Assembly (NCBI GenBank): GCA_010909165.1
Contig: MU008164.1
Span: forward strand, 372,001 to 436,000
Length of the DNA: 64,000 nt
DNA from: Anthoceros angustus
Taxonomy: Eukaryota > Plantae > Anthocerotophyta
Direction of reading: 5' to 3'
The notes beneath the pieces were generated by a model that ran no database searches, was not told the DNA's origin, and worked only from the letters and a program-made list of their open reading frames with translations. The position numbers were made by a program, and so were the translations under genes. Of the stretch, positions 19,801 to 55,848 are shown one piece after another (within the stretch, counting starts at the first letter, position 1; the number at the start of each line of letters is the position of its first letter).

Positions 19801-21717
19801 TTGGGAAAATTCAAAGGATGCTGATAGGCCCCTCGTTGTCGGTTATATCTCGCCAGACTATTTCACGCATTCTGTGTCATATTTCATTGAGGCACCCCTG
19901 GTCCATCATGACAGTAAGAACTACCGGGTGGTTGTCTATTCTGCTGTTGTGAAGGTAATGACATTTCAAGCTCAGTCTCATGCAATTGAAGTTCTCTTTT
20001 TCCTGCAGCTGTGGCCTGCAGGCATCATGCTAAGCCTTGTTATGTGTGCATTACTTCTTCAGGAAGATGCCAAAACGAACAGGTTCAAGGATACTGTTTT
20101 GAAGAAGGGTGGTGGTTGGAGAGACATCTATGGCATCGATGAAAAGAAGGTTGCAAACATGGTACGAGAAGATAAGGTGGATATTCTGGTTGAGCTCACT
20201 GGTCACACAGCAAATAACAGATTAGGTGTGATGGCCTGCCGGCCTGCTCCAGTCCAGGTACTGCTGAGATTTGTCCTTAAGATTGCTGGATTTCTCCTGC
20301 TGCTGGATTGATTTTCTTGTCATTTCTGCGACAGTATTGGGTAGGTTGTGGACGCCTGGATAATATTTTTGTCTTATGCAGGCAACTTGGATTGGATACC
20401 CAAACACAACTGGTCTGCCCACAATAGATTATCGGTTCACTGATGCGCTTGCAGATCCCCCAAACACTAGGCAAAGGTAAGTTGATAACATGGGTGTATT
20501 ACATTATCACACATAAATTTCGAATATGAGCAGAAATGCATAATTTGTCTGCCACTCTCTCAGGCATGTAGAGGAGCTCGTGAGGTTGCCTGGCTGCTTC
20601 CTCTGTTACACAGCATCGCCTGAGACTGGACCTGTTGTGCAAACTCCAGCCATGGCCAATGGTTTTATTACATTTGGGAGTTTCAACAATCTTGCAAAGG
20701 TGCCACGTTTTGGGTAGCTTGCTTTTGATGAAGCTCTGGAGGGCCCACCTCTGCATGGCTAATGTTTGTGGGATACTGTGCTTCAGATTACAATCAGAGT
20801 GCTTCGTGTGTGGGCCAGAATACTATGTGCCATACCAACCTCCAGGCTGGTGGTAAAGTGCAAGCCCTTTTGTTCTGAGAGTGTCAGAGAGAGATTTTTA
20901 GCTAAGCTTGAGGAGTTGGGAGTGGAGCCTCTTCGAATTGATCTATTGCCCTTGATCCTTCTCAACCATGATCACATGCAAGCCTATTCATTGATGGACA
21001 TCAGGTCTGGATTGCTTTGAGACTTTTTGTACCTGACACTTTGACAGGCTTCGCATTTAATAGTAGCTGTATGTTCTGGCAGCCTGGATACCTTTCCTTA
21101 TGCCGGAACTACTACAACCTGTGAGTCCCTCTACATGGGTGTACCTTGTGTTACCATGTCTGGGCTAGTACACGCTCACAACGTGGGCGTTACCCTTCTT
21201 CACCAAGTTGGTACGTACCTGTCAGCAGGCATTCTACTATCCATTTGTCATGTCATGCAGCATTGACATCGTTTGCCTACACTGTCTGATAGGTTTGGAA
21301 AAACTGGTTGCCCGGACAGAAGATGAGTATGTCCATAAAGCCATTGAGCTTGCCTCAGACTTTCCAGTGCTTGCTGCTCTGAGAAACAACCTAAGGGAGC
21401 GGATGTTGAAGTCACAACTCTGCAATGGGCCCAATTTTGTTCGCGGACTGGAAGCTTCTTATCGAAGTTTATGGCGTCGCTATTGTGATGGAGATGGGCT
21501 TGTAGAGACACGACGCAAAGATTTGGAGTCGGGTGAAGAACCTTCGCAGGTTGCGAATTTGACAGGTGGTGCATCCTCTGAGGCTGCCACAAATGCAACA
21601 AGTGCATTTGCTGGACCACCTTCGGCACCTAGCTCGTCACTGTCTGCCCTTGATGGCAACAGTACAGGAGAAGTACGGCCTAAATCTGCAAAGAGGAACT
21701 CTTCCAACTTTGCCTAG
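16846..21717 (+). CDS. SPY: SPINDLY protein O-fucosyltransferase (TPR repeats + GT41 domain), multi-exon
   Basis: MAW start and ILRTRNKFVDAL, then many TPR exons (YAEAYCNMGVIYKNRGDLESAIACYER, CAEACNNLGVIYKDRDNLDKAVECYQ). Catalytic domain: DSRNAGQNRLLAMNY, SPDYFTHSVSYFIEAPL, ELTGHTANNRLG, TWIGYPNTTGLPTIDY, TFGSFNNLAK, SLDTFPYAGTTTTCESLYMGVP. Confidence 0.96.
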
Positions 21718-27710: not shown

Positions 27711-28079
27711 ATGGCAGCCAACCTTGCTTCCATCGTGGCTGGAGCCCAACTTGTGCTCTTCACTTTCACGAGCCTGCTTAATCTAGCTATCATGAGGACG
27801 CGAAGTGGACGAAGCTATCACAGCCAGGAGACCACTAGGAAGCGAGAAGGAAGGAGAGGAATCACAAGACACAAAAATGACCGTGGCGCTATTCCATGAC
27901 CAAGGAAGGGGCACAGGAAAACACTGCTAGAGGCTGGGAATGGGACAATGTGCAATTGGGGTAGTATCTTGGCGCAGGCAACTATCACGTTCATCGATCG
28001 TCTTGGGAAAGGTGAGGAAAGAAGAGGCCGGTGCGGTTTCGGAGAGGAAGGAACACAGAGCCTTATCAAGCAGCTCGAG
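27711..28079 (+). CDS. Antisense accessory ORF of copia B, 5' part (3' part at 42252-42305, split by insertion of A)
   Basis: MAANLASIVAGAQLVLFTFTSLLNLAIMRTRSGRSY...QSLIKQLE | DTIKLLDKVKNVEP..EE*. Homologous to 32169-32636 and 54402-54806; contains indels. Confidence 0.7.
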
Positions 28080-28653
28080 TAAAGGAATAGATGTGTTGGA
28101 GTCATGATTATGGTTCATTCAGTTAAGTTATTTTAAAAGGTCATGGCGTTTCATTAGGGTTACGTCTGTTCATAAAGGCGTGGCTTTTGGTTTTACTTAA
28201 ACCATTACGAACTTTAATTGTGTGTGTATTCTTTACATATATAGTGTGATACAATGTAATACAATTATTAATCTGTATATTCCATTTATCCTAAAATGGT
28301 ATCAGAGCACATGAATATGCAGGTTGCATTTTGATTAATGCACATTGAAAAATGCATTTAAAGAGAATGCATTTGAATATAGTTTTTTTTGTTTTTTGAT
28401 TTAGAAAAATGTTTTCTTGATCAAGAAACCAAAAACTTAAAGAATACAATTTGTGTTGTTTATTTATATAGAAATTGATGCGCCCGCAAATTAAGGAAGT
28501 GATCCTCGCGCATCTTTCCTGAATTGTTATTTGAACAATTTCAGAAGAAATGCGCTAGGACAACTACCTAATCTGCAGGTAGATTGTCAAAAATATTTTA
28601 TATAAAAAATACAATGTCAAAAGAAAACATTTAACAACACAAAATCTGGCCTG

Positions 28654-29340
28654 ATGAATGGCCAACCGTCTGGACGGCACAGTTGGCAGCCTCGCCCTGC
28701 TGAGCAAATTCCACAACACCAGAATCGCCGCAGGGGGCAAGGAGCACAAGCTGCAAGAAACACAGTTGCTGAGCAACTTCATCAACATACAACTGAATGG
28801 ATTGCCAGAACTCAAAATCAGCCTGTGCTCGCTCTTGAAGTAAGAGAATCCTTCAATACCTTGATTGAAGCACTCTATCCTGATCAGCGCCACTTGGTAA
28901 TTGCCCTTCCACCTCGAAACCCTGATAATCTCCCAGAGGTGCGTGTTCAGAGGGCTTTTGATGGGAATGGTCATCACGGAGGCTTTCTAACAACACATGT
29001 ATCACCACCTGCCAGTGTTGCACAATTAGTGAACAGAATTGAATCACATCAGGAACATGTGGATACACGTTTTAGTAGCATTATACAAAAGGTATCTGCT
29101 ACTAGTGTAGATTTGAGAGACTTACAAGAGCAGATAGGTCATTTGGATTTCAAACTTCTTATGTTGTTGAAGCCAGCCTTGCTTGCTAACCCTGTCCTTA
29201 GGGGTGTAGCCTGTAAGAACGCCAAGAAAACAAATAAGAATCATATGTTTGGAAGTCCAAATTCATGTCCTTCTTGCTCTGTATATGCTTTCAATAAGTG
29301 GGAGATTAGAAATCAGAGAATAATCGAGAATACAATGTGA
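28654..29340 (+). CDS. Extra 5' ORF (ORF0) of copia A: coiled coil + C/H/CxxC motif
   Basis: Intact 228-aa ORF between PBS and gag. Its C-terminus HMFGSPNSCPSCSVYAFNKWEIRN matches HERKFDTPNSCPSCSTYAFNKFEMRN at the same position in element D. Confidence 0.72.
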   Translation: MNGQPSGRHSWQPRPAEQIPQHQNRRRGQGAQAARNTVAEQLHQHTTEWIARTQNQPVLALEVRESFNTLIEALYPDQRHLVIALPPRNPDNLPEVRVQRAFDGNGHHGGFLTTHVSPPASVAQLVNRIESHQEHVDTRFSSIIQKVSATSVDLRDLQEQIGHLDFKLLMLLKPALLANPVLRGVACKNAKKTNKNHMFGSPNSCPSCSVYAFNKWEIRNQRIIENTM

Positions 29341-29498: not shown

Positions 29499-31801
29499 AT
29501 GGCAACAGCAGATACCTCATCCAGTCTAGGTGGGGAAGGGTTCAAAGAGAAAGACAGGTTTGGTGGGCAAGATTACGATATATGGGTAATTAGAATGAGG
29601 AGAGCCTTGCAGAATAAGAAACTCTGGAAGGTAGTTATTGGGGATGATAAGCCCCCAGTTGTCTCCACTCTACCCACAACTGCTGAAAGCAAGTTACAGG
29701 ATGCATGGGATGCAAAAGATCAAGCAACCATGTTCCTCATCCGAAGTGGTCTTACCTCAGACATGTTAAGACAGACTTCGGGATGTACAAGTTCAGCAGA
29801 AATCTGGTCCAGACTTCAAGATCAGAGTGCAAAAGAATCGACAAGTCGATGATTAAATTATGAAATTTATGCTTTGCAAAATGAAAGATGGAGAATCAAT
29901 CGAAAAGCATCTTGGACATTTCAGAACACTTGTGTCCAGGCTGGAAAGTGCTTCAAACGAGGTTATAAAGGATGAAACACTTACACTTTATTTCCTCATA
30001 TCCTTACCAGACTCTTGGTCACATTTCGTGACCTCCTTTAACGCTTCGAGACTCCAAACTGAGAAACTTGCAAAGGCTTCCAATGTTTCCCTCCCAAAAA
30101 CCACCTTTGCAGAGTTAGTGGGAGCATTACTACAAGAGGAAGCAACAAAGTATCAGAATAATTGTTCTGGTAAACAGCAAGCCCTCTATACATCCAACAT
30201 AGGACGTGGAGGAGGAAGACCCTACAACAGGGGTGGGGGCAGTACCTCAAGAGGTGGTGGCTCACAAGGACGAGGAGCCAATCAGAGAAAACCAAAAAGG
30301 ACAAGAAACTGCAACTGGTGCAAGTTACCTGGTCACTGGGAGCGTGAGTGCCGGAAAAAGCAAGCTGGTGTTCCTCGCAAGGAGGGTTCAACCAGTGCTC
30401 AGACTCACGTGGTTGTGAAGAAGCAACCAACCCCTTCTGCCCTCACAGTCGGTACAACAGTGTTTGCAACAAGTTCATTCTTGTCTCCTGCATGCCTGTC
30501 AGCAAATACAAATGTTAAGCATACCATTGATTGGTACTTAGACACAGGGGCTACAGCCCATATTTGCTTAGACAGAGGAGCATTTCAAACGTACAAAACA
30601 GTTAAGGATCAGTACGTATACCTAGGTGATGACAGATCCCTAGTTTCTCCTGGTCTTGGCACTATAGACCTGCCAGTTCCATCAGGAAATGTGTTAGTAC
30701 TGCATGACGTCTACTACGTCCCTGAGATGACACAAAATCTCATTTCAGTCAGGAAGCTGAATGCTAATAATCACTGACACATCTTATTTACTCAAACAGA
30801 ATGTCAAGTACTAGATGCTTTTAATCATACAAAAGTACTGGCCTATGGGTCATCAGATAGAGACTTGTTTCGTCTCCATATAGATAGTAGCTTACCATTC
30901 TTAAACTTGACAAAGGGTGCAACAACTGCGTCTACACAACAGATAGAAAAGTCAAAATTGTGGCACTCACGACTAGGCCACCCAAATTCAGCAAAGTTAC
31001 AAAAACTAGCTGTAAGTGATCTTTACCAGCATGGGCATATAGGGCCTCTAGTACCACTTCCTTTGTGTGAATCCTGTGTTCTTTCAAAGAGACATCAAGC
31101 AGCCTTTAAAAACAAGGCACCACACAGAGCTTCGGATGTCTTGGAACTTGTCCATACAGATTTGTGTGGACCTCTCTCACAGGAGTCCATTGGTGGTGGA
31201 AAATACTTCCTGACATTTACAGATGACAAAACGAGGTTTGTTACTACTTACATTTTGAAGTAGAAGAGTGAATGCTTTACTCACTTTAAGGATTACCTTA
31301 AGTATGTTGAAAGATGGACTGGAAAGCAACTTAAAACTTTAAGATCAGACAACGGGGGAGAGTTTACCTCAAATGAGTTTCAGGATTACTGTTTGGCTGA
31401 GGGCATTGGTCGCCAGCTTACAGTCGTCTACACTCCACAGCAAAATGGCGTAGCTAAGCGTCTTAACCTAACGTTGCAGGAGATGACATCTTCTCTTCTA
31501 CATCATGCTCAGCTCCCCCTGCCATATTGGGCAGAAGCCATTATGACATCAACTTATCTTAAAAATAGATTGCCCACAACTTCAGTTGTTGGACTTACCC
31601 CGTATGAAGCCTTCACGGGGCGCAAGCCATCCATACTTCACCTGCGCACCTTTGGCTGTATAGCATATGCTTTTGTTCCTAAAGAGAAGAGGAAAAAGTT
31701 ATCAGACAAGGCACGTAAACTTCTGATGTTAGGCTACGCAAAGGGCATCAAGGCATATAAACTCTATGATGTTCCTAAAAATAAAGTAATATATGCCAGG
31801 A
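29499..31801 (+). pseudogene. Copia A gag-protease-integrase (premature stops; continues at 39382 and 41051)
   Basis: Gag FKEKDRF, zinc knuckle CNWCKLPGHWEREC, protease WYLDTGATAH, LWHSRLGH, integrase VHTDLCGP / LRSDNGGEF / QNGVAKR (catalytic E changed to K). In-frame stops at about 29850, 30775 and 31261. Confidence 0.92.
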
Positions 31802-32168
31802 TGTAAATTATCAAGCAGAAGCGAGAGGTGCATGAACTCTTGATAGTTGGATTAATTAATGAATGCAACACAAAATCATTGTTTTATCTTGACGCCGACT
31901 TGTATATGTAACCCTAATTCACATAACCCTAGTCCGAGTGACCATGTGTCTAGGTTTAACTGACCGATAACCCTATCGTAACAACCCCCCTTAAACTGGA
32001 CACATCATTCAGTTCCTTCACGCGAAGCTGGCGTACACGAGGAAAAGGTCACGGTCGGAAGTATCACGCTCCACAGCCGACTGCATCACGCTCCATCGAG
32101 GCCTAGCGTACACAGGAGCTTATGCCCCAAGGCCAGCTCTCGGAGGATAAGAGGGACGCAACTCAGAG

Positions 32169-32636
32169 ATGGCAACCAACCTTGCCTCCGTCGTCGCTAT
32201 AATCCAGCTTGCGCTCTTCGCTCTTACGAGCCTGCTCAATCTGGTGATCATGAAGACAAGGAGCGGGAAACGCTATCGCCGTGAAGACGCTCCAAGGAGG
32301 ACCAGATGGGCAGGAAACGCCCCACAGACCGGTGCAAGCGCAGAGAGCAACGCACCATCAAGCCTGCTCACCATCAGAGAAGAGCAGCAGGAAACCGCCG
32401 CCCAAGGCTGTAAGTGGGACAGGCACTGTTGGGGACAGTATGTGCACCTCGGGTGCTACCACGTAGAGTTGAACATCAGCCTGTCTCTGGGCAAGGTGAA
32501 GAAGGGAGAGACACGCGCTACCATCTCCAAAGACGCCCAGGGGGAAGAAGGAAAACAGAGCCTCATCAAGCAGCTCAAAGACACAATAAAGCTGCTAGAC
32601 AAGGTGAAGGACGTGATACCAAGGGAGGAGGAATAG
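32169..32636 (+). CDS. Antisense accessory ORF of copia C (155 aa)
   Basis: Intact ORF convergent with pol: hydrophobic N-terminus, MKTRSGKRY motif and conserved C-terminus HLGCYHVEL...GEEGKQSLIKQLKDTIKLLDKVKDVIPREEE. Homologues in B and E. Confidence 0.75.
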   Translation: MATNLASVVAIIQLALFALTSLLNLVIMKTRSGKRYRREDAPRRTRWAGNAPQTGASAESNAPSSLLTIREEQQETAAQGCKWDRHCWGQYVHLGCYHVELNISLSLGKVKKGETRATISKDAQGEEGKQSLIKQLKDTIKLLDKVKDVIPREEE

Positions 32637-32676: not shown

Positions 32677-35600
32677 TCATCCACTGATCAAGCTTTGGAT
32701 CACCGACCGGCTGATGTCCGTCATAGATAAGAGCGCTGCTAGGAGGGCTTCATCATAAAAACTGGAAGTGCAGGCTTCCACCCCACACCCCGCCTGCCTA
32801 CAAACCAGATAAGGCTCATCACTGCTGGAAACGGGCAGAAAATCCTCGAGCCCAAGTCCCTCCATGTGGGCATAGTGCTTTTGCTTAGATAGGCCTTTAG
32901 TCAGGATGTCTGCGGTGTTGTCCTCAGTATTGATATAACCGACTGTAATGACCCCACGTTCAACCACATCACGTATGTAGTGATGCTGGATTTCAATATG
33001 TTTAGTACGGGCGTGAAATTTCGGGTTTGCCACTAACTCAAGCGCAGACTGGTTGTCACAGAGAAGCTGCGTAGGCTGAAGTTGATGATCAAGATCAGCA
33101 AGGAAACTCCTCTCCCATTCAGCTTCTTTAGAAGCCTCTGTCAGAGACTTATATTCAGCTTCGGTGGAGCTGAGGGCAATACTCGCTTGCTTCTTACAAC
33201 TCCAGTTCACAGCTGCTGAGGCTAAAAGGAAACAGTACGTAGAAAGACTACGGCGAGAATCTTGATCTGACGCCCAGTCGGCATCGGTGTAACCTGTCAG
33301 GGTAAGCTGTGCTTTGCCACTTTGTCTGTACACCAAGCCTGTTGTATGAGTCCCCTTAAGGTAGCGGAAGATACGTTTTACAGCTGTCCAATGTGTCCTT
33401 CCAGGATTTTCCAGAAACTGGGATACTGTGCTCACAGAATATTGGATGTCGGGTCTCGTCCAGTTAGCAACAAAAATAAGGCTGCCCACCGCGTGCCTGT
33501 AAGGTACATCGCGCATATCTTCCATCTCTTCTGCAGTCTCAGGACACTGCTCTCGGGTAAGCTTGGTCCCGACTGCATAGGGGGTTGTAGCAGGACGAGC
33601 TTGGTCTAGGTTGAACTTCTTCAGTATTTCATTTACGTACTTGTACTGATGGATAATCATGAGGCCTTCGGATCTAATGCGAAGCAACTGTATGCCAAGA
33701 CAGAACTTCAACTCTCCAATATCCTTCATGTCAAACTTGCTGCTAAGTTTATTTTTGACATCTGACAGCAGCTGTTGATCATTGGTTGCGAGAATTACGT
33801 CGTCAACATACAAGGCTAAAATCACAATAGAAGACCCCACAGTGAGTTTGTAAACGTTAGTATCTGCCGTGCTCTGGACGAAAGCTATACTGAGCAAGTA
33901 TACGTGCATCGTAAGGTACCATACTCTCCCACTTTGCTTAAGTCCATAAATGCATTTCAACAACTTCAGGACTTTATTAAGGTGTTTTGGGTCTTCATAT
34001 CCCTCTGGCTGCAGCATGTAAAGTTCTTCGTCCAGGGCACCATACAAAAACGCAGTACAAACGTCCATCTGTTGAAGGTCCAAATTATGTTCTGTGGCAT
34101 AGGCAAGCAAGATCCTTATGGATTGAGTGCGTACAACTGGAGAAAAAGTGTCTTGGTAATCCAGACCCTCGACCTGGGTGAACCCGCGGGCAACTAAGCG
34201 AGCTTTGAATCGCCACCTCTCCCTTAGCATTGAGCTTGAGTTTGAATACCCATTTACAGGATATTGCCTTGCGACCCGGAGGGAGGTCTGCCAGTACCCA
34301 TGTCTTGTTCTTGACCAGTGACTGGTACTCGTCCTCAACGGCCTCTTTCCATTGTGCTGACTCAGGACCATCAAAAGCTTGAGATAAAGAGGTAGGCTCA
34401 TCTGGAAGAGATGGGCTAATAACAAGATGAGTCCGGAAATCTGTAGATTGATATGGGGGCTCTGCCCATTCGGATGGTGGGGGACGATGGCGAGAAGACC
34501 GCCTGAGCTCATCTGCAGGGGGTGCTTCTAGTGCGTGCTCTTGTTCGACTGCTTGGCCATCATGAACCTGGGCAGGTGCCTCCACAGCAAGGGGTCGATG
34601 ATCATAGTGTACAAGAGGGGGACGCTCATCAAGGATAGCATCCTGGTCAGGTTGTAATCCCTGTACAGCATTAGGAGCCTCGACAGGCTGCCAATCATCA
34701 TCACCTCTGGCAGGAGGTGGCAACTGTGGGGGAACTGCAACATGTTCCATGTCGTCCAGTGGGTAGTCGGCAGTTTCATCGGCATCCAAAACATCCAAAT
34801 GTCCATGAATGGCTCCTGGGTCGGGGGAGGATGGATCAGTGGAGGATGGATGCAGTGTCTCCGTAAAGGTTACACTACGAAAAGTACCATGGAGTCTACC
34901 TCTGGGTTGTACAACTTGTAGGCTTTAACAAGCTCACTGTAACCAACAAAGATGAGGCCTTGAGCACGAGCATCCAACTTCTTTCTCTTCTCTGGAGGAA
35001 TATGGGCATATGCTTTGGATCCAAAAATCCTCAAATGGAGCAAGCTCGGCCTCTTGTGCCAAAAGACCTCATATGGAGTCTTCTGTGGGACCGAACTTGT
35101 AAGGACCCTATTCAGGATATAGGTGTGAACTACCGCCTCGCCAAGACTTGTGGTAAGCCCATATCAGCATGCTCCTCGTCATTCCTGTGAGGGTTTGGTT
35201 TTCCTCTCTCAAAATGCCGCTTTGTTATGGGCGCAGGCACAACAATCGTCAAGGATCCCATGCTCTTGAAGCAGCTCATCAAGAGATGAGTTGACGAACT
35301 CCGACCCATTGTCTGTCCTTAAAATCTTGAGAAGCATTGTCTTCAGACCATCAAAAGCTTGAGATAAAGAGGTAGGCTCATCTGGAAGGGATGGGCTAAT
35401 AACAAGATGAGTCCGGAAATCTGTAGATTGATATGGGGGCTCTGCCCATTCGGATGGTGGGGGACGATGGCGAGAGGACCGCCTGAGCTCATCTGCGGTG
35501 CTTGTGCGTGCTCATGTTATTTGCTTGGCCATCATGAACACAGGCGGGTGCATCCGAGGCGGTCGATGATCATAGTGTACAAGAGGGGACGCTCATCAAG

Positions 35601-38062
35601 GATAGCATCCGTGGGTTGTAATCCCTGTCACATTAGGAGCCTCGACAGTCGCTAATCATCTTCACCTGCGGAGGTAACATGTAGGCGCAACATGTTCCAT
35701 GTCATCCAGTGGGTAGTCGGCAGTTTCATCGGCATCCAAAACATCCGAATGTCCATGAATGGCTCCTGGGTCGGGGGAGGATGGATCAGTGGAGGATGGA
35801 TCAGTGGGTGCTGTTGGCTCCAGAAAGGTTACACTACGAGCAAGTACCATGGAGTCTGTCTCAGGGTTATATAACTTGTAGGCTTTAACAAGCTCACTGT
35901 AACCAACAAAGATAAGGCCTTGAGCACGAGCGTCCAACTTCTTTCTCTTCTCTGGAGGAATATGGGCATATGCTTTGGATCCAAAAATCCTCAAATGGAG
36001 CAAGGTTGGCCTCTTGTGCCAAAAGACCTCATATGGAGTCTTCTGTGGGACCGAACTTGTAAGGACCCTATTCAGGATATAGGTTGCAGTAACTACTGCC
36101 TCGGCCCAGTACCCTTGTGGTAAGCCTGCCCATATCAGCATGCTCCTCGTCATTCCCAGGAGGGTTTGGTTTTTCCTCTCTGAAATGCCGTTTTGTTGCG
36201 GCGTGTAGGGCACAGTCAACTGTCGAAGGATCCCATGCTCTTGAAGCAGCTCATCAAGAGATGAGTTGACGAACTCCGACCCATTGTCTGTCCTTAAAAT
36301 CTTGAGAAGCATGCCTGATTGTCTTTGTGCAGTTAAGAGCCATTCCTTGAAGTAACTAAAGGTGTCACTTTTCATATGCATGGGGAAGGTCCAGGTGTAA
36401 CGACTGTAATCATCAGTTAGAGTAAAGAAATATCTGGAACCACCTAAAGATGGCTCATGGATCTTCCCTGATATGTCAGCGTGCACTAACTCAAGGACTT
36501 GTGTGGCTCTATGTGCAGAGGCATTAGGAAAGGGGGATTCCTTTTGCTTGGCCAGGATGCAAGATTCGCAGACTGGTAAGTCTTTAAAACATTTAGAGTG
36601 GCTCCCTGTGACACTCCATAACTGACATGTCAATTAGCTTAGATCTGTTGACATGTCCTAATCTGGCATGCCACAATACGGCCTCTTGCTTTGCACTAAC
36701 TGAATTTCTGGCAGTGGAGTGTGCAGCATGATTGGAAACAATGGCGGAGCTGCAAGTGATGTTCAATCTGTATAAATCATGGTCTAAGATACCTTTGAAA
36801 ACACATGTATCTGGGTATGCCTTTCTATAGAAAGAACAGTGATTAGAATCAACACGCATACATAAGGTACGCAGACGCATCAACTGGCTCATGGACATGA
36901 GATTTTTGGCCATGCATGGAACAAACAAACATCATCTAATCTGAGGTCTGTACTGTCCTGCAGCCTGAAGATACAGGTACCCTTGCCTTCAACGGGCAGA
37001 CTTGTTGTACTTTGCTCATCACCAAGCAGGACCTTGTCATTGACATGACCAAGGTCAAGGGTAGTAAATAACTCCCTGTCTTTGCAGATGTGAGTCGTAG
37101 CGCCGGAGTCCAGATACCAACTACAGTCATCATGTAGGGAACTAGAAAGGCAAACGGTAAGTATCTTGACCGGTGCCTTAGTTTCTCCAGGATTTTTCTC
37201 CTCGACAAAGCAAAGATTAGTTTCCTACTGCTGCTCACCGCCTTCTTTATGGCAGCCTTGCCCAATGGCTGTGGGTGCCACACCGCTTGCAAGAACCTGG
37301 ACGTTTGGTGGAGGAGCTAGCGAACGGGCCTCTGTCCAACAGAACGGGCTGTAGCCGAGTGCTCTCGAATTTGGCCTTGCCTCTGAAAGGTCGTAAATTC
37401 ACAGCTAATACTCTCTCGGTTCTGTTCTTAGGAACAGCACCGGAAAGGGTACGAGCCTGTTCCTCCTGATAGAGTGGCCGATGTCCTCAATAAGAAGTCA
37501 GCAGATCCCGAGGCTTTACAGTCCGCTTTTGAGCAAAGGATAAATTGATATGAAGGTGGGAGACTAATGAGTAGCTGGGATACAGCTTCGACTTCTGGCA
37601 TCTTGTTACCAGTCAACGAAGTGATCTGGGCCCTAAGATGTCGGAACTTGCTGGTATGAGCAGCTTCTCTCCTTCCTTCATTTTCAAAGCATAAAACGCC
37701 ATTCTTGCGGCTGATAACGACAGCATGTTGGTGGACCGATAAGTGGTTTCTAACTGGTGCCAGATAGCCTCCGCTGTGTCCAAGAACTCAATATCAGGCA
37801 CAAGATCTGCATCTAGGCCATTGATGAGGAGGGCCATAGCGACACCATTGTGGTGCATCCACTTGGCATGATCATCAGGGTGTGTGGAAGGATCAGGCTG
37901 CTTGAAAGTGCCATCGAGGACTGGCCAAACTCCACGAGCAGACATGATGGCCTTAATCCTGACTCGCCAAATGAGGTAACCATTTCCCTTAAACCGATCT
38001 TTTTCCTTCAATTCTGAAGTGAAAGATAGTGCTAGGGTCGGATGTGAATTTGACGAAGCCAT
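32677..38062 (-). CDS. Copia C gag-pol polyprotein (frameshifts probably partly assembly errors)
   Basis: Gag LKEKDRF at 38062; LWHARLGH; IN VHADISG / LRTDNGSEF / QNGISERKN; RT FKARLVARGFTQ, QMDVCTAFLYG, LYVDDVIL; RH GYTDADWA, SSTEAEY, ADILTKGL. Confidence 0.9.
34365..36312. repeat. ~980-bp tandem duplication inside copia C (probable assembly overlap)
   Basis: 34365-35337 is repeated at ~35345-36312. The first copy degrades by indels at its right end and the second at its left end. Confidence 0.75.
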
Positions 38063-38543: not shown

Positions 38544-39149
38544 TCAAAGCTGAATGGGTAAACCGTTCTCCAGACCCTGCAATCTAAGGTCCATCTTTTT
38601 CAAGATTTCAGTCAAATAATCAATATCTTGTTTGATGTCCAGTTTGCAGGCTGAGATAGCTTGTTCAGCGTTGAGAATTAGGCTGTCGACTCTGTTCCTG
38701 GTAGACTCCTGATTTGCAAGCGTTAAAGTGAACACCTTCTCCACACAATCTGAGGTAACCAGTGATCTGCCACTAGTTTGGTCCCTGAATTGTGTGGGAT
38801 TACTGATGGTGTTATCTCTTTGTTGTGGCACAGACTGTCTTGAGCAAGAGGAGGATGCCTCTGTGCTAGGTCTGAAGAATAGATTTGGATTCTGTCCTCT
38901 GTTACGGCAACGCTCCCTATACAGGCGATCCACTCCTCTATTTCTGTGGAGGAGATGAGCCGGTCCAGGAGGAGTGCTTCGCTGTGCCACAAAACGTCTT
39001 AGCCAGAGTGCAGGGTATTCGTACTCGTAGAGGTCCAGCAACGTGTCAATGGGCAACGTTGCTGTTTGCTTTCGTAGGCGACCTTCCTGATTGTAATTTC
39101 CTGGAGGTCCACCACGCCGGCTTCCTCTAGAACCACCCTGCCTCGGCAT
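38544..39149 (-). CDS. Extra 5' ORF (ORF0) of copia C (201 aa)
   Basis: Intact ORF starting 33 nt after the PBS, upstream of gag. Arg/Gly-rich N-terminus and heptad-like C-terminus (VDSLILNAEQAISACKLDIKQDIDYLTEILKKMDLRLQGLE). Confidence 0.65.
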   Translation of the reverse strand: MPRQGGSRGSRRGGPPGNYNQEGRLRKQTATLPIDTLLDLYEYEYPALWLRRFVAQRSTPPGPAHLLHRNRGVDRLYRERCRNRGQNPNLFFRPSTEASSSCSRQSVPQQRDNTISNPTQFRDQTSGRSLVTSDCVEKVFTLTLANQESTRNRVDSLILNAEQAISACKLDIKQDIDYLTEILKKMDLRLQGLENGLPIQL

Positions 39150-42100
39150 TCTTAGGAGATCTTAGCAGGAAAACAGAGCATGGCTCTGATACCATGTAAA
39201 TTATCGAGCAGAAGCGAGAGGTGCATGAACTCTTGATAGTTGGATTAATTAATGAATGCAACACAAAATCATTGTTTTATACTGACCACGCGACTGTTCA
39301 TGTATGTAACCCTAATTCACATAACCCTAGTCCGAGTGACCATGTGTCTAGGTTTAACTGACCGATAACCCTATCGTAACAGTGTTACCTTTGATGAAGG
39401 CAGCACTTGGGCATCAGTGGGAGCTTCCCAGGATCCCCCTCTTGAGGATGATGATGACACAACAAAGGCCTGTATTCAATTTGATCAAACCGATCATGGG
39501 ACTCAAGTTGTTCTACGAGGATGTTGCCCCTATGCGTGGGGATGCTCCGGCTGATGATCTTGTTGATGATTCAGCAGGTTTTGACCTTGTTGGTCTTGAA
39601 GAGCGTAGCTCGCACAACATAAGATGTACCCGACAAGCTTCATCGCCTTACGTGAGCCCGATCCAAGTTTTGTACCAGATCGGTGAGCATGGGTGCCTTA
39701 GAAGCTCACAATCTGAGTCTTCTCGTTGCTGTGTCGAGGCTTGGGGAACTTCACATGCACACTGCGGGTGGAGCCGTCATCATAGTATGCAAAATCCAAG
39801 TTCAGGACCCTGACCAGACAGGTGAACTCAACTTTTGGCGACGAAGGAAAGGGAGGAGCGCTCATATCTCGGCGAGTTCTGAAGCCTTCGACCTTGCGCC
39901 GCTCCAGAACTTCTTTTGTTGTCCCTTTCGGCCTTCCAACTCTTCGCCTGCTGGTGGACGCTTTGTTCTCAACACTCTTCTCAACCTTGGTAGTTGTCCT
40001 AGGCGCAAACCTCCCTAGGGCATCGCGCTGTTGGCGGCGGGTCTTGGGAGCGGCATCAGAATCAGAACTTGAAGAAGCCATGATTGACAGGAGGCGCGCG
40101 ACTCTACGCCTCAACAGCTCAGTAAATACTTGGGACGTGAAGAGGCTGAATGTTATGTAGGCGGCGCACCTCATCACAACAGTTTGGGCACTGGAACAGG
40201 TACTTGAAGATACCATCTTGATTCACTGTGACTTGAAAAGATGGAGCGTAACCAAGGATGTAAATCGCTATTATGGCGCTTTGAAGATTAAAGACAACCC
40301 ACCGAACTTACCATACCACGCACCCCCACCACCATGAAGACTGAATATGCAAATGAATCATGACCAACAAGTGGGAGTAAAGGAATAGATGTGTTGGAAT
40401 CATGATTAGGGTTCATTCGGTTAAGTTATTTTAAAAGGTCATGGCGTTTCATTAGGGTTACGTATGTTCATAAAGGCGTGGCTTTTGGTTTTACTTAAAC
40501 CATTATGAACTTTAATTGTGTGTGTATTCTTTACATATATAGTGTGATACAATGTAATACAATTATTAATCTGTATATTCCATTTATCCTAAAATCGAGG
40601 ACACGATCAAGCTGCTCGACAAGGTGAAAAATGTAGAGCCGAGGAGGAGTGAGCTAAACCAGAACCAGTGATTAAATTTCTCGATAGGCTTCATCCACTG
40701 CCGTTGCCAGTGCGCTGGTCGTAACTAATCGCTCGTTGTCTTCAGAAGGAGTTTTGATTGGTGAGTTATCATCAATAAACTGGAAGCATACGCCCACGCC
40801 CGGCTTCCTCTAGAACCACCACCGCCCATTCTTAGAGATCTTGGCGGGAAAAGCAGGCATGGCTCGATACCATGTAAATTATCGAGCGAGCGAGGTTATG
40901 AACTCTTGATAGTTGGATTAATTAATGAATGCAACACAAAATCATTGTTTTATATACGCGACTGCATCATGTATGTAACCCTAATTCACATAACCTAGTC
41001 CGAGTGACCATGTGTCTAGGTTTAAGCCGACCGATAACCCTATCGTAACAGTGTTACCTTTGATGAAGGCAGCACTTGGGCATCAGTGGGAGCTTCCCAG
41101 GATCCCCCTCTTGAGGATGATGATGACACAACAGTGCCTCCAGATTCCCAATTTGATCAAACTGATCATGGGACTCAAGTTGTTCCTGCTGAGGATGTTG
41201 CCCCTATGCGTGGGGATGCTCCGGCTGATGATCTTGTTGATGATTCAGCAGGTTTTGACCTTGTTGGTCTTGAAGACGCAGCTGCAGAGCCTGCACAACC
41301 AGATGTACCTGACAAGCGCTTCATCATCAGTTCTGTGAGCCCGATCCAAGTTTTGTACCAGATCGGTGAGCATGGGTGCCTTAGAAGCTCACAATCTGAG
41401 TCTTCTCGTTGCTGTGTCGAGGCTTGGGGAACTTCACATGCACCGAGCTGGCTATCATAGTATGCAAAATCCAAGTTCAGACCCCGACTGCATGTGTGAA
41501 CTCAACTTTGGCGGCGAAAGGGAGGAGCGCTCATATCTCGGCGAAGTTCAAGCCTTCGACCTTCGCCCCGAGAACTTCTTTGTTGTCCCTTCGGCCTTCC
41601 AACTCTTCGCCTACTGGTGGACGCTTTGTTCTCAACACTCTTCTCAACCTTGGTAGTTGTCCTAGGCGCAAACCTCCTAGGCATCGCGCTGTTGGCGGGT
41701 CTTGGGAGCGACATCGATCGAACTTGAAGAAGCCATGATTGACAGGAGGCGCGCGACTCTACGCCTCAACAGCTACTTGGGACGTGAAGAGGCTGAATGT
41801 TATGTAGGCGGCGCACCTCATCACAGCAGTTTGGGCACTGGAACAGGTACTTGAAGATACCATCTTGATTCACTGTGACTTGAAAAGATGGAGCGTAACC
41901 AAGGACAGAAATCGTTGGCTATGGCGCTTGAAGATTAAAGACAACCCAGCTGAACTTACAGTCCACGGGCACCCTGCAGCCGACCATGAAGACTGAACAT
42001 GCAAATGAATCATGACCAACAAGTGGGAGTAAAGGAATAGATGTGTTGGAATCATGATTAGGGTTCATTCGGTTAAGTTATTTTAAAAGGTCATGGCGTT

Positions 42101-42440
42101 TCATTAGGGTTACGTATGTTCATAAAGGCGTGGCTTTTGGTTTTACTTAAACCATTATGAACTTTAATTGTGTGTGTATTCTTTACATATATAGTGTGAT
42201 ACAATGTAATACAATTATTAATCTGTATATTCCATTTATCCTAAAATCGAGGACACGATCAAGCTGCTCGACAAGGTGAAAAATGTAGAGCCAGAGGAGG
42301 AGTGAGCTAAACCAGCAACCAGGTGATTAAATTTCTCGATAGGCTTCATCCACCTGCTGTTGCCTTGTGCGCTTGGCTGTGTAACTAACTGCTCACTGTT
42401 GTCTTCCACAGGAAGGAGTTTTGATTGCAGAGTTATCATC
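39115..42440. repeat. ~1.65-kb tandem duplication spanning C 5' LTR, A 3' end and B flank (probable assembly overlap)
   Basis: ~39115-40790 is repeated at ~40795-42440, including both insertion junctions. The copies differ mainly by small indels. Confidence 0.75.
39698..40216 (-). CDS. Antisense accessory ORF of copia A with AT-hook-like motif (duplicate copy ~41380-41864)
   Basis: 172-aa ORF read away from the 3' LTR: QQRDALGRF, RRRVGRPKGTTKE, FPKP..EKTQIVS. The same motifs occur in order in element D at 43980-44340. Confidence 0.65.
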   Translation of the reverse strand: MVSSSTCSSAQTVVMRCAAYITFSLFTSQVFTELLRRRVARLLSIMASSSSDSDAAPKTRRQQRDALGRFAPRTTTKVEKSVENKASTSRRRVGRPKGTTKEVLERRKVEGFRTRRDMSAPPFPSSPKVEFTCLVRVLNLDFAYYDDGSTRSVHVKFPKPRHSNEKTQIVSF

Positions 42441-43899
42441 AATAAAGCGAAGCACGCTTCCGCCCGCCCCTCCCCAACCCGGATAAGTCTCCATCACCGC
42501 TAGAAATAGGCAGAGAAGTCTTCCAGCCCAAGTCCCTCCATGTGTGCATAGTGCTTTTGCTTAGATAGGCCTTTTGTCAAGATGTCCTCAGTGTTGTCAT
42601 CTGTACTTACATGGCCAACTTTGACAACACCACGCTCAACCACATCAGGGATGTAGTGATGCTGGATTTCTATGTGCTTAGTACGAGCGTGAAATTTCGG
42701 ATTGGCCACTAACTCAAGTGCTGATTGGTTGTCGCCAAACAGCGGTGTAGGTTGGAGTTGTGCTTGATCCAGGTCACTAAGGAAACTCCTCGCCCACTCA
42801 GCTTCCTTAGAAGCTTCGGTCAAAGACTTGTATTCAGCTTCGGTGGAGCTGAGGGCAATAGACGCTTGCTTCTTACAACTCCAGGTGACAGCTGCAGATG
42901 CGAGCAAAAAACAATATGTAGACAAACTGCGGCAGGAATCTTGATCGGAAGCCCAGTCGGCATCTGTGAAACCTGTTAGGGTAAGTTGTGATGTTCCACT
43001 TTGTTTATACATCAATCCTGTTGTGTGTGTGCCCTTGAGATAACGGAATATTCGTTTGACTACTATCCAGTGAGGCCTACCAGGATTTTCAAGGAACTGA
43101 GACAGCGTGCTGACTGAAAATTGTATATCCGGCCTTGTCCAGTTGGAAACAAAAATAAGGCTCCCAACTGCATGCCTGTAAGGTATGTTTTTCATATCCT
43201 CTGTCTCCTCTGTTGTTGTTGGGCACTGAAGTCGAGTTAGCTTGGTTCCTACAGCATAAGGTGTAGTGGCTCGGCGCGCCTGGTCCAGGTTAAACTTCTT
43301 GAGGATCTCATTGACATATTTGTACTTGTGAAGGATCATTAACCCTTCAGACCTTAAACGAAGCAGCTGTATACCAAGGCAAAACTTCAACTCCCCAATA
43401 TCTTGCATATCAAACCTGAAGATTTTATGGTCTAATGTAGATCAATTAAACATTATAGAATAATTACATTGTTGGATCAAGAAAGAAGTAAGTTGCTTAT
43501 GCATGAAAAGACAACTAAACTAGATTTAATGAAACGTTGTATCTATTCACTTAGAGACGTAACCCTAATGAAACGACACCATATCTAGTAAACCCTAGCT
43601 TATCATATCTTGGTAATATATGGATAACTTAAACCCTAAACCCTAACTATGATATCAACATTGTATATCATTACTCCCACTTGTTGTAAATAGTTAGGTA
43701 CAAATTCTCACCGTGAACCGCTCGTGAGACTCTGGAGTTGAGCTCCTTTGCCAATCTTCCGGTTTTGCCATCTTGTGGTGGTAGAGCTTACGCCCCATCT
43801 TCATGTCTTTACGGACACTATGGAGTGTACCAAAGTGTGAAGCCACCGAGTGTGTTGGCTCCCTTTATAATTCTCCTTACGCCTCGCCTCATATGCATC

Positions 43900-44680
43900 G
43901 ATCGCCTTGAGAGAAGGTTTGCGCCCAGCCATATCGAGATGGCGCCACCGGTCTTCGTAGTTTGAGGGTACTTTGCCCAAGAAACCGCAGCAGCCCAGAA
44001 ATGCTCTAGGCCACTAGAGCCCGATCAAGAGGAGACTCAACTTCCGCAGCCTAAAGGGGCGTGAAGAGAACGGGCGCCCAAAGGAACCACCAAGGAGTTT
44101 CGCAACGCAGAGGTCAGTAAACAAGAAACCATGGGCGGCCCTTCTTCGTGTCACTCCTTCTAGGCCAAGAGCGGCAACAAGAGTAAAAGCAAATCCCGCA
44201 CATGTTACCCCGATTTTGGCTTTTCTCGAGAACGGCTAACCCTTGTGAGGACCCAAGCTTTCCCAAGCCTGCACTGCTCAAGGAAACCCAAATTGTCTCC
44301 TACGGCGACCATGAAGCACCCTCGCACCCCTATGTGGTATAGGGTTCATGGGCGACTAAACCGTGATGTATCAAAGTTGAAGATTGCCGGGCGATCCTCA
44401 CCATGTTGTTAGCACGGTAAGTCCCAAATTCCATCCTCAAGATTTTCTGCTTTTGTGTGTGTGAGAGCTAACCTAGCTCCCACTGCTTTGCAGGATCTAA
44501 CATACGATCAAGAAGAGTCTCGACCTCCTCAAGACAATCTCGTGCAAGGCAAGAAGGCGTGGAGAAGACCCACCGCCTTGACATTCCCGATCCTTCCAAG
44601 AGGAGGAAGATGAGAGTCAAAGCCTCAGCCGGTGAGTTTGAGTCCGTGGGGACTCATACTCTCGTGTCTCGTGATGAGAC
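43900..44680 (+). CDS. Antisense accessory gene of copia D, apparently spliced (intron 44417-44493)
   Basis: Frameshifted homologue of the A antisense ORF (QQPRNALG, GRPKGTTKE, FPKP, KETQIVS, HPRTPMWYR). It is followed by G|GTAAGT...GCTAAC...CTGCTTTGCAG|G. Confidence 0.55.
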
Positions 44681-53990: not shown

Positions 53991-55848
53991 TGTGAAGTAT
54001 CATTACATAATCATTTGCTAGATTTGACTATAGCTAAGAGGTTTAGGCGGTACACACAAACATGTGTATCCGTAATGAATTAATTGAACATATCAAAAAG
54101 GTCTCATATGTGTTCATTAAATAGCCAAACCCTAAAACAAAAAGGTATATCTAAATATGATAAGTTAAGCTAATGGCAGCAACCCGTAACACCTCTTAAG
54201 CTCATGTTTAAGCAACTAACAACAAGCCCAAGATCATCCTAAAGCAAACCCTTCGTAAACGAAAGCGGTACGCGATCCACGTAAAAGCGCTCATGCACCG
54301 GACGACTCAAACTCATAGCTTCTGCCACTCCGCATCGCGGCTTGAGTAGCCCAACAACCTCCACTCGCAGCCCGAAGAAGAATAAGGCTGTTACCGGAGC
54401 CATGGCTAGTAACCTTGCCTCTTTGATCACGGAGCTGAATCAGCTGGTTTCCTGCATACATCTTCTCGCGGTGCGCCATGAAGACTGGCAAGGCGTGATA
54501 AGGATTTTAATCGAGGAAAACAGGAAGAATAAGATACCACCTGCCAAAACAATGTTTACGAGCTTTGGACAAGAGGCGTGCCACGCCGGGGGGACTACAA
54601 GACGTGGGCGGAGGATTCACTTGGGTGCCTACCACATGGAACTGAGCGTGAACCTAATATGGGGAAAGGTGAAGCGAGGGGAGACTCCTAATTTGCCTTT
54701 GTACGCTATTGGGGTGGAAGGGAAACAGACCTTGATCAGCCAGCTGGAGGACACCATTGAAATGCTGGACAGAATTAAGGACGTGATGCCGAGAGAGGAG
54801 GAGTGAAGGCCGAACCAAACAGCCAGGTGATTAGATGCTGAACTGGAGCTCCATCCAACCTGGTTTGTCAGGGTTTTCAAGTAACTTATAGCTGTGTGAT
54901 GTATCTGGGCAGGAGGAACATAGATGGAGAGCATCACAATAAACTCAGGATGTGGTCATCCGGAACCCCCTCTCACACAGATAAGAGTTACTTAGTTCTG
55001 CTCATAGGCTGTGAAATCAATAAGCCCTAGGCCTTCCATATGCCGGTAGTGTAGATGCTTGGGAAGGCCCTTTGTAAGGATGTCCGCCGTATTTTCATCT
55101 TGGAACATGGCGATCTTTATAATACCGATGAACCACATCTCTAATATAGTGATGTTGAATTTCAATGTGTTTCGTGCATGAAATTTAGGATTTGCAACAA
55201 GCGCAAGAGTGGACATGTTGTCACATAGAAGTGGCCTGGCTTGCTGCTGCCCCAAATCCAAAAGGTTCAGATCCACTGCCTCCTTAGAGGCCTGTCGACT
55301 CTTGTACTCGGCCCCGCTGACGAGAGGGCAACCGATGTTTGTTTCTTGCAGCCCAGCTTGGTGACAAATGAGGAGAGGAGAAAACAATATGTAGAAAGGC
55401 TTCGACGTGATTCTCGTGTCCGATGCCCAATCAAGATCTGAAGCCTTCAACAAAAGTTTCCCGCCGGCCCAGTTGCTTCGTATGCTAGTCCATAGGATCG
55501 AAAATTTTAGGTAGCGGAAGACACGCTTACCGCCAATGAACTCGGCCTGGATTTTCCAGAAATTGGGATAGGGTGCCGATCAATCGGATGTCCGCCTTGT
55601 CCAGCTAGCTATAAAAATTAAGCTTCCTATGGCATGCCCGTAAGGGACCTGTGCCATCTCTCACCTCGTCGCACCTTGTGGACATTGACTAGTGAGCTTA
55701 GTCCCTACAAGATATGGTGTAGTAGATGGCCGGCATGTTCAAGCTTAAACTTATGTAGCAGTTCTTGAACATATTGATACTGATGAATGATGATCAACTT
55801 CTCAGGTCTGACCCTTAGTAACTGAATGCCAAGGCAGAAACGTAGCTC
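53991..55848 (-). mobile_element. Ty1/copia element E, 3' part (B/C lineage)
   Basis: LTR inner end ...CCCGTAACA (54191) plus CCTCTTAAG. RT/RH remnants at 54992-55848 (ELRFCLGIQLLR, VANPKFHAR, ADILTKGL). Left LTR boundary inferred. Confidence 0.75.
54402..54806 (+). CDS. Antisense accessory ORF of copia E
   Basis: MASNLASL...(ATG AAG ACT GGC AAG at 54478)...HLGAYHMELSVNLIWGKVKRGET...GVEGKQTLISQLEDTIEMLDRIKDVMPREEE*. Confidence 0.7.
   Translation: MASNLASLITELNQLVSCIHLLAVRHEDWQGVIRILIEENRKNKIPPAKTMFTSFGQEACHAGGTTRRGRRIHLGAYHMELSVNLIWGKVKRGETPNLPLYAIGVEGKQTLISQLEDTIEMLDRIKDVMPREEE

What the first reader, a model, noticed from the sequence alone, without database searches (positions are those of the whole stretch)
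32250..32276. M[RK]TRSG motif resembling the viral nucleosome acidic-patch arginine anchor
B encodes MRTRSGRSY (ATG 27792) and C encodes MKTRSGKRY (ATG 32250). E has ATG AAG ACT GGC AAG (54478), i.e. the motif lacking two codons. Established: KSHV LANA MRLRSGRST, IL-33 MxLRSG and CMV IE1 MVTRSK dock on the H2A-H2B acidic patch. A TATA-like AATAAAAAG lies only ~15-20 nt before the first ATG in B, so the second Met could be the true start, placing the motif near the N-terminus as in LANA. Inference: a retrotransposon-encoded nucleosome tether. Short basic motifs can also be simple nuclear localisation signals.
Basis: partly seen in the sequence, partly recalled or inferred. Interest (0 to 1): 0.72.

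Follow-up and report, generated by a model that had tools for sequence, protein, structure and literature searches.

The report
Retrotransposon antisense gene with LANA-like motif
A plant jumping gene carries an extra gene on its opposite strand whose protein holds, in two of three copies, a short peptide kept by selection and predicted to grip nucleosomes as a herpesvirus protein does, so it likely ties the protein to host chromatin, though binding is untested.

Summary
The motif is real in copies B (27792) and C (32250). It is codons 28-36 of a 155-codon antisense ORF (C: 32169-32636) between RNase H and the polypurine tract of Ty1/copia elements in a green-plant genome. The ORF is under purifying selection (C vs E C-terminal domain pS 0.71, pN 0.27). 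The motif is selected as protein: B and C differ at 9 of its 27 bases, yet T-R-S-G are unchanged (P about 0.001). It lies in the register of LANA M6-R12 and IE1 M483-S487, and a co-fold with H2A-H2B gives the LANA pose (0.83 vs best control 0.02), which may be recalled from solved structures. E's ATG is out of frame with E's open ORF and reads MKTGKA-stop, so E has no motif. The second Met need not be a start: the first ATG has a strong context in all three copies, and LANA's own Met6 is an internal contact residue. An uncharged hydrophobic helix precedes the motif and could be a membrane anchor. Only one outside homologue (C-terminal part) was found. Verdict: a likely nucleosome-docking accessory protein (about 0.5), resting on two copies.

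The parts
32250..32276 (+). Motif MKTRSGKRY, codons 28-36 of the antisense ORF of copia element C
   Evidence: co-fold
32169..32636 (+). Antisense additional ORF of element C, 155 aa: hydrophobic helix (5-27), motif and basic patch (28-46), variable linker, conserved C-terminal domain (about 88-155) ending in EEE
   Evidence: no Pfam family
32169..32249 (+). Codons 1-27: uncharged hydrophobic helix, possible signal anchor (Kyte-Doolittle 19-residue maximum 2.34)
32430..32633 (+). Conserved C-terminal domain (predicted beta-hairpin plus helix), shared with E and P0003
31802..31983 (-). 3' LTR of element C (TG...CA); likely seat of an antisense promoter (inferred)
31984..31996 (-). Polypurine tract of element C
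   Evidence: sequence
32677..34527 (-). RT-RNase H frame of element C; its stop lies 40 nt from the antisense ORF's stop, tail to tail
   Evidence: RVT_2, E 2e-63
39195..39381 (-). 5' LTR of element C, followed by a Met-tRNA primer site (39183-39194)
27792..27818 (+). Motif MRTRSGRSY, codons 28-36 of the antisense ORF of element B
27711..28079 (+). First part of B's antisense ORF; frameshifted after the motif and cut by the insertion of copia element D (target duplication TCGAG at 28075-28079 and 40595-40599)
40595..40656 (+). Last part of B's antisense ORF beyond the insertion (second copy 42247-42307 in a tandem duplication)
54402..54806 (+). Antisense ORF of element E, 134 aa, open, same start and C-terminal domain, no motif in frame

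Best explanation
The stretch is codons 28-36 of a selected antisense accessory gene of a plant copia retrotransposon lineage, and its M-[RK]-T-R-S-G-[RK] peptide likely docks the protein on the H2A-H2B acidic patch as LANA does. Shown: the ORF, its place between RNase H and the polypurine tract, purifying selection on it and on the motif in B and C. Predicted: Arg31 in the E61/E92 pocket, Met28 and Thr30 on H2A Y57/A60, Lys29 on H2B E110. Inferred: transcription from a promoter in or beside the 3' LTR; the protein works as an adaptor whose conserved C-terminal domain brings a partner (a host chromatin factor or the element's own integration complex) to nucleosomes; the N-terminal helix either packs in an oligomer or is skipped in a shorter form. 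The motif is a feature of the B/C branch, not of the whole family.
For: Selection on the ORF: C vs E, 65 codons, pS 0.71, pN 0.27, while the other two + frames give dN/dS 0.94 and 1.99; B vs C pieces pN/pS 0.12 and 0.26. Motif: Sd 5.5, Nd 3.5, pN/pS 0.17, Fisher p 0.0006; all four TRSG codons differ and all silently; random placement of the same 9 changes keeps M[RK]TRSG in 0.06-0.07% of 50,000 trials per copy. The residues kept match the contacts described for LANA (M6, R7, L8, R9) and IE1 (M483, T485, R486, S487) in PMC9040877, and R12 and T14 in PMC10606924. Co-fold: score 0.83, best of 3 controls 0.02; the mark was reached by 51 of 78 solved and 2 of 108 mismatched pairs (eukaryotes 39 of 65 and 2 of 126; peptides untested); runs agree in at least 79% of contacts, partner pLDDT at least 63. 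A like complex (LANA-nucleosome) is solved, so the pass shows likeness, not binding. The patch residues are the same in a plant-type H2A (L007). Antisense accessory ORFs of plant LTR elements include a nuclear one, Grande GENE23 (PMC7264820).
Against: Only 2 copies carry the motif, and they share one origin. E, the third copy, has an open ORF without it; a shuffled linker of E's make-up stays open in 8.5% of trials, so decay or assembly error in E is possible but not favoured. The one outside homologue, P0003, covers only the C-terminal part. Residues 1-27 hold no charged residue in B or C and are followed by a basic patch (net +7 in C, +4 in B), the pattern of a membrane signal anchor, which would put the motif against a membrane. 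The co-fold left out residues 1-17 and DNA, used animal-type histones, and its controls were unrelated proteins, not basic or Arg-to-Ala peptides; in a published screen only 41 of 119 confident H2A-H2B hits held when DNA was added (bioRxiv 10.1101/2024.06.26.600687). The motif was picked after the fact.
Confidence: 0.5

Rival explanations
1. The protein is a small membrane protein: residues 5-27 are a reverse signal anchor and the K/R-rich stretch after it is the cytosolic positive-inside flank, with TRSG kept as a helix cap, kinase site or cleavage site. The LANA likeness is then chance.
For: No D/E/K/R in residues 1-27 of B and C, hydropathy maximum 2.34 (C) and 1.89 (B), basic patch directly after; all 8 replacements between B and C in codons 2-27 stay small or hydrophobic. 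Sense env-like extra ORFs of plant elements often have transmembrane helices (PMC7264820).
Against: E's equivalent helix has three charges and a maximum of 1.39, so membrane insertion is not a family trait; positive-inside flanks need charge, not the exact M-x-T-R-S-G; the coding constraint on codons 2-27 is weak (pN/pS 0.57, p 0.15; simulation P 0.05-0.11).
Confidence: 0.2
2. The stretch is part of a plain nuclear localisation signal or a DNA/RNA-binding basic patch of a nuclear accessory protein, like Grande GENE23 or Retand TRP28 proteins.
For: C has KRYR (fits the recalled K[KR]x[KR] rule) and further Arg pairs; B has RKR 8 residues later. Antisense ORF products of Grande and Retand are nuclear or predicted DNA binders (PMC7264820, PMC11963269).
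Against: The basic residues are the ones that vary between B and C (K/R, K/R, R/S), while M, T, R, S, G, Y are kept, the reverse of what an NLS predicts.
Confidence: 0.15
3. The motif binds the acidic patch and the helix is a true membrane anchor: an inner-nuclear-membrane tether that holds nucleosomes, or a membrane-stored protein released by cleavage or a second start.
For: Both features lie side by side in B and C and both are missing in E.
Against: No spacer between helix and motif, so the nucleosome face would have to touch the membrane; no data on location.
Confidence: 0.1
4. The conservation is at DNA or RNA level (promoter or 3' cis element of the genomic RNA) and no protein with this motif is made.
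For: The non-coding stretch from the polypurine tract to the first ATG is 77% identical between B and C while synonymous sites in RT-RNase H differ at 68%; codons 1-27 are 79% identical. Expression is unshown.
Against: The motif codons are the least alike in DNA (67%) and change almost only silently; no unusual RNA fold on either strand (all 14 z-scores between -1.7 and +1.9); the C-terminal domain is selected as protein.
Confidence: 0.05

Closest known systems
KSHV LANA chromatin-binding motif (M6-R12; PDB 1ZLA) and IL-33 MxLRSG
   Same: Met, basic, x, Arg, Ser, Gly, basic in the same register; predicted contacts pair M28/M6, K29/R7, R31/R9, K34/R12, Y36/T14 (against PMC9040877 and PMC10606924).
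   Different: Thr in place of the Leu (L8) that LANA buries; motif follows a 27-residue hydrophobic helix instead of a short flexible end; no sequence homology beyond the motif; binding untested.
hCMV IE1 chromatin-tethering domain (476-491; PDB 5E5A)
   Same: M-x-T-R-S core, with Thr and Ser predicted on H2A E64 as T485 and S487 are (PMC9040877).
   Different: IE1's motif is C-terminal, has Val at the second place and needs His481; V-shaped pose rather than hairpin.
Prototype foamy virus Gag chromatin-binding site and MLV p12
   Same: Retroelement proteins that hold the acidic patch (PMC9040877).
   Different: They are parts of Gag and travel with the particle; this is a separate antisense gene with no shown link to the particle.
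Antisense additional ORFs between pol and the 3' LTR of plant LTR elements (Grande gene23, RIRE2, Retand TRP28, PvRetro13)
   Same: Same place and orientation, conserved across copies, no cellular homologue, function unknown (PMC7264820, PMC11963269).
   Different: Grande, RIRE2 and Retand are Ty3/gypsy elements with long 3' regions (Retand 2.9-6.6 kb); here a copia with a 0.7 kb region and a 155-aa product without TRP28, SMC or any Pfam domain; no acidic-patch motif was seen reported for them in the passages read.

Membership tests
Ty1/copia LTR retrotransposon (carrier) | Order gag-protease-integrase-RT-RNase H between two LTRs, primer site and polypurine tract | tested here: met
   Retrotran_gag_2, Pol_BBD, gag_pre-integrs, rve, RVT_2 in this order on the - strand; LTRs 39195-39381 and 31802-31983, Met primer site, PPT
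Ty1/copia LTR retrotransposon (carrier) | Target-site duplication around the element | tested here: not met
   C is flanked by CAGGA and GTGTT; D, inside B, has TCGAG on both sides
Antisense additional ORF between pol and 3' LTR | [quoted passage not shown] | tested here: met
   32169-32636 +, pol stop 32677 -, PPT 31984
Antisense additional ORF between pol and 3' LTR | Present in several copies and conserved as protein | tested here: met
   3 of 3 copies of the B/C/E lineage in the window; purifying selection
Antisense additional ORF between pol and 3' LTR | Transcribed from its own antisense promoter | not testable with these tools
   No sequencing run could be laid on the stretch
LANA/IL-33-type acidic-patch motif (MxLRSG) | Anchor Arg with Met at -3, Ser-Gly after | tested here: met
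   B and C; not E
LANA/IL-33-type acidic-patch motif (MxLRSG) | Leu directly before the anchor Arg | tested here: not met
   Thr in both copies, as in IE1 T485 (PMC9040877)
LANA/IL-33-type acidic-patch motif (MxLRSG) | Motif in a flexible, accessible segment | tested here: inconclusive
   Full-length model has pLDDT 40; the motif abuts a hydrophobic helix
Arginine-anchor acidic-patch binders | Arg inserted at H2A E61/D90/E92 | tested here: inconclusive
   Predicted only (R31 with E61 and E92), possibly from memory of solved structures
Arginine-anchor acidic-patch binders | Nucleosome binding lost on Arg-to-Ala or acidic-patch mutation; mitotic chromosome location | not testable with these tools
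   Needs bench work
Retand TRP28 / Grande gene23 protein families | PF04195 (Transposase_28) or SMC-like domain | tested here: not met
   No Pfam family at E 0.01 for P0001 or P0002

The most novel reading that the evidence does not exclude
A copia retrotransposon lineage has evolved, independently of herpesviruses and foamy viruses, a separate antisense accessory protein that grips the nucleosome acidic patch with a LANA/IE1-type peptide, possibly as a membrane-anchored tether; this would be the first molecular function for any antisense extra ORF of a plant LTR element.
Probability: 0.4. Interest if true: 0.75.

Novelty: new variant of a known kind. Interest (0 to 1): 0.55.

Why it matters
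Antisense extra ORFs of plant LTR retrotransposons are common and have no known function (PMC7264820, PMC11963269). A nine-residue motif with a known target makes that question testable with one peptide and one point mutant. If true, retrotransposons join herpesviruses and retroviruses in using the acidic patch, through a separate gene rather than Gag, and copy E offers a natural motif-less comparison. My paper searches for acidic patch with retrotransposon, transposon-encoded or copia terms listed no report of such a tether; most subscription papers are not in that library.

Tried and rejected
No whole genome is held, so copies outside the window could not be counted. No sequencing run was listed, no RNA holder listed. 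Homologue searches: none for C alone among 34 candidates; with alignment A4 only P0003 among 1246 candidates; HMMER over 1.84 billion representatives gave 2 hits, P0003 (E 1e-7, kept) and P0004 (a 445-aa tandem repeat matched through its hydrophobic stretch, rejected). Nothing in viral contigs or PDB sequences. The ESM Atlas gave no answer. 80 metagenome copia loci (30-52% identical in RT-RNase H): no homologue by profile (best E 0.86), and of the 55 with at least 1 kb after RNase H, 8 had some antisense ORF of 80 codons or more and 0 had the motif. AlphaFold2: full length pLDDT 40, not searched; C-terminal domain pLDDT 62, best Z 3.1 among 48,161 chains, no match. A Pfam Ntox28 hit (E 0.01, 16 bits, cut-off 25, 1 of 3 members, on the helix) is rejected. 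The fourth copia family F (43417-50133) has no clear homologue in its 3' region (1 of 6 frame comparisons at shuffle p 0.015, the rest 0.24-0.54). The B-vs-C counts used a wrong start for B and were discarded; one search repeats them, and only the C-vs-E counts are used. Roussel et al. 2008 (IL-33) was not held. Second Met as the start: not excluded, put at about 25%.

Full report
Setting. The window is eukaryotic: it holds a type II metacaspase (best solved match Metacaspase-4, E 4e-75) and an O-GlcNAc transferase gene, so the host is a green plant or streptophyte alga (inference; species not determined). No whole genome is held. The middle of the window is a nest of Ty1/copia elements. Element C lies on the - strand from its 5' LTR (39195-39381) through gag, protease, integrase, RT and RNase H to the polypurine tract (31984-31996) and 3' LTR (31802-31983). 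B and E are relatives (B vs C RT-RNase H: pN 0.07, pS 0.68; E vs C: pN 0.39, pS 0.81). The sequence is rich in indels (66 gap events in a 1.7 kb tandem duplication), so frameshifts may be decay or assembly errors. The best RT-RNase H relatives among the 120 listed are at most 52% identical: the lineage is poorly sampled.

The observation. MKTRSGKRY at 32250 and MRTRSGRSY at 27792 are there. In both they are codons 28-36 of a + strand ORF, antisense to pol, that starts at 32169 in C and 27711 in B. C's ORF is open for 155 codons and stops 40 nt from the pol stop. B's is frameshifted after the motif and cut by the insertion of element D (target duplication TCGAG). E's ORF (54402-54806) is open for 134 codons with the same start (MA[ST]NLAS) and the same C-terminal domain, but its ATG 54478 is out of frame and reads MKTGKA then two stops. 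E therefore encodes no motif. The shared 9-mer at that place suggests common descent with a frame change in one branch; E's linker would stay open by chance in 8.5% of 5000 shuffles, so a true motif-less variant is likelier than decay, but not proven.

Is it a gene? Yes. C vs E over 65 C-terminal codons: pS 0.71, pN 0.27 (dN/dS 0.16); the other + frames give 0.94 and 1.99, and only one mirror frame on the - strand is also low (0.33), with no long ORF there. B vs C pieces give pN/pS 0.12 (13 codons) and 0.26 (18 codons). One outside homologue exists, P0003, a 69-aa product from a sequencing-run assembly that covers the C-terminal domain only. There is no Pfam family, no solved relative and no fold match.

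Is the motif selected? B and C differ at 9 of 27 motif bases. All four TRSG codons differ and all silently; the replacements are K/R, K/R and R/S (Sd 5.5, Nd 3.5, pN/pS 0.17, Fisher p 0.0006). Random placement of the same number of changes keeps M[RK]TRSG in 0.06-0.07% of trials. The motif was chosen after the fact and the test has two sequences, but the direction is clear: the residues kept are the non-basic ones plus the central Arg, which argues against a plain NLS.

Which start? The first ATG has a purine at -3 and G at +4 in B, C and E, and conservation with E begins at it. Codons 1-27 have no indel between B and C, while the 170 nt upstream have 8 gap events, and all 8 replacements stay small or hydrophobic. 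But the coding signal there is weak on its own (pN/pS 0.57, p 0.15; simulation P 0.05-0.11), and synonymous change is low (0.32 against 0.68 in RT), so a DNA-level element may overlap it and a shorter transcript is not excluded. I put the first ATG at about 75%. The AATAAAAAG exists only in B. The second-Met argument is not needed: LANA's M6 and IE1's M483 are contact residues in a hydrophobic pocket (PMC9040877), which alone explains a kept Met28.

The complication. Residues 1-27 carry no charge in B and C and reach a hydropathy of 2.34 and 1.89, followed by a basic patch. That is the pattern of a reverse signal anchor (established knowledge). E's helix has three charges and 1.39, so the family trait is a helix, not necessarily a membrane one. 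Location is the open point.

Co-fold. Residues 18-50 of C were folded with an animal-type H2A-H2B pair (L011; the patch residues are the same in the plant-type H2A L007). Score 0.83, best of 3 controls 0.02; the mark was reached by 51 of 78 solved and 2 of 108 mismatched pairs (eukaryotes: 39 of 65 and 2 of 126; peptides untested); contacts agree to at least 79%, partner pLDDT at least 63. R31 touches H2A E61 and E92; M28 touches E56, Y57, A60; T30 and S32 touch E64; K29 touches H2B H106 and E110; K34 touches E64 and H2B V45; Y36 touches H2B Q44 (H2B renumbered by me to the papers' scheme). This is the LANA register residue for residue (PMC9040877; PMC10606924). Because the LANA complex is solved, the pass shows likeness and not binding. 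No DNA and no Arg-to-Ala or basic-peptide control was included. A published screen kept only 41 of 119 confident H2A-H2B hits once DNA was added, and found no general sequence motif for anchors (bioRxiv 10.1101/2024.06.26.600687).

How it most likely works. Shown: an antisense accessory gene under selection, with a selected motif in the B/C branch. Predicted: the docking pose. Inferred: transcription from the 3' LTR side, as for Grande gene23 and the antisense promoters of AtRE1 and Mdoryco1-1 (PMC7264820); a two-ended adaptor, with the motif on nucleosomes and the conserved C-terminal domain on a partner. The partner could be the element's integration complex (a p12-like tether) or a host chromatin factor. 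I lean to a regulatory role, because the protein is not part of Gag-Pol and the integrase tail already carries an RRSxR peptide; the data do not separate the two. Odds: acidic-patch docking by a soluble protein 0.5, membrane protein with chance likeness 0.2, NLS or nucleic-acid patch 0.15, membrane-anchored nucleosome tether 0.1, non-coding constraint 0.05.

Comparison and novelty. It is a member of the structural class of antisense extra ORFs between pol and the 3' LTR, in a copia rather than the gypsy carriers Grande, RIRE2 and Retand, and of a new protein family. It works like LANA/IE1 by prediction; it fails the strict MxLRSG test at the Leu (Thr, as in IE1). Paper searches listed no retrotransposon accessory protein with such a tether; searches listed reviews of extra ORFs. 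Earlier scan notes report LANA-like motifs in giant-virus proteins and antisense ORFs in fungal copia; they are unchecked leads and show that both features turn up often in this scan.

What I read. PMC9040877: parts 1-3 of 6 of the text. PMC7264820: parts 1-2 of 3 (all main sections). bioRxiv 10.1101/2024.06.26.600687: passages and section 4; its supplements were not seen and might list motif classes. PMC10606924, PMC8750818, PMC11963269, PMC13347269: passages. Others: search listings only. LANA S10, G11 and S13, the NLS rule, the positive-inside rule, the Kozak rule, the superfamily of Grande and RIRE2, and the CENP-C motif are recalled, from no call.

Verdict. Real, selected, and a good match to a known docking peptide, but resting on two copies of one origin, absent from the third, next to a possible membrane helix, and without expression or binding data. 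Interest 0.55.

Noticed in passing
window 34507 (- strand), second copy 35487; P0005-P0124: The integrase tail of element C reads LRRSSRHRPPPSEW, like the acidic-patch-binding HMGN/Dsup core RRSxRL (PMC13347269) and the recalled CENP-C motif. R.S.R lies within 110 aa before the RT start in 52 of 95 copia polyproteins that had the RT anchor (of 120 fetched), against 3.0 after shuffling. Searches listed no paper on this likeness. It may be a general nucleosome anchor of copia integrases and deserves its own test.
   Followed up: partly
window 38544-39161 (-) and 28606-29340 (+): Elements C and D each carry an extra ORF of 205 and 244 codons upstream of gag, with no Pfam family and a coiled-coil-like end; weakly alike (shuffle p 0.048).
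   Followed up: partly
window 28080-28296 and 40378-40594; 43417-43673 and 49875-50133: Elements D and F have LTR ends other than TG...CA (D: TA...AA with a clean 5-bp target duplication; F: TA...CA on the - strand), both with a Met primer site.
   Followed up: no
window 31797-31801 and 39382-39386: Element C sits in D's integrase with no target-site duplication; D's frame would run on across the site without repeated bases.
   Followed up: no
window 39382-40377: D has no RT or RNase H between its integrase and 3' LTR, only about 1 kb of other sequence: a likely non-autonomous copia.
   Followed up: no
window 43680-44790: Copia F has a 1.1 kb region between RNase H and its 3' LTR with broken + strand frames; no clear kinship to the B/C/E ORF.
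   Followed up: partly
window 39112-42446 and 34366-36312: Two tandem duplications with more gap events than expected for true repeats (66 gaps and 48 mismatches; 35 and 42), probably long-read assembly artefacts.
   Followed up: no
window 540-1379 (-): An intron-less DUF4291 gene (E 2e-63) in a plant-like genome, near a type II metacaspase (7684-8607) and an O-GlcNAc transferase (16813-21717).
   Followed up: no
L179, 220 nt past the RNase H match: A metagenome copia locus has an antisense 158-aa ORF that looks like a plant TIR domain (recalled likeness, not scanned).
   Followed up: no
L001-L117: Many prokaryote species-representative assemblies contain animal histone gene clusters, and one a plant H2A (L007), as contamination.
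   Followed up: no
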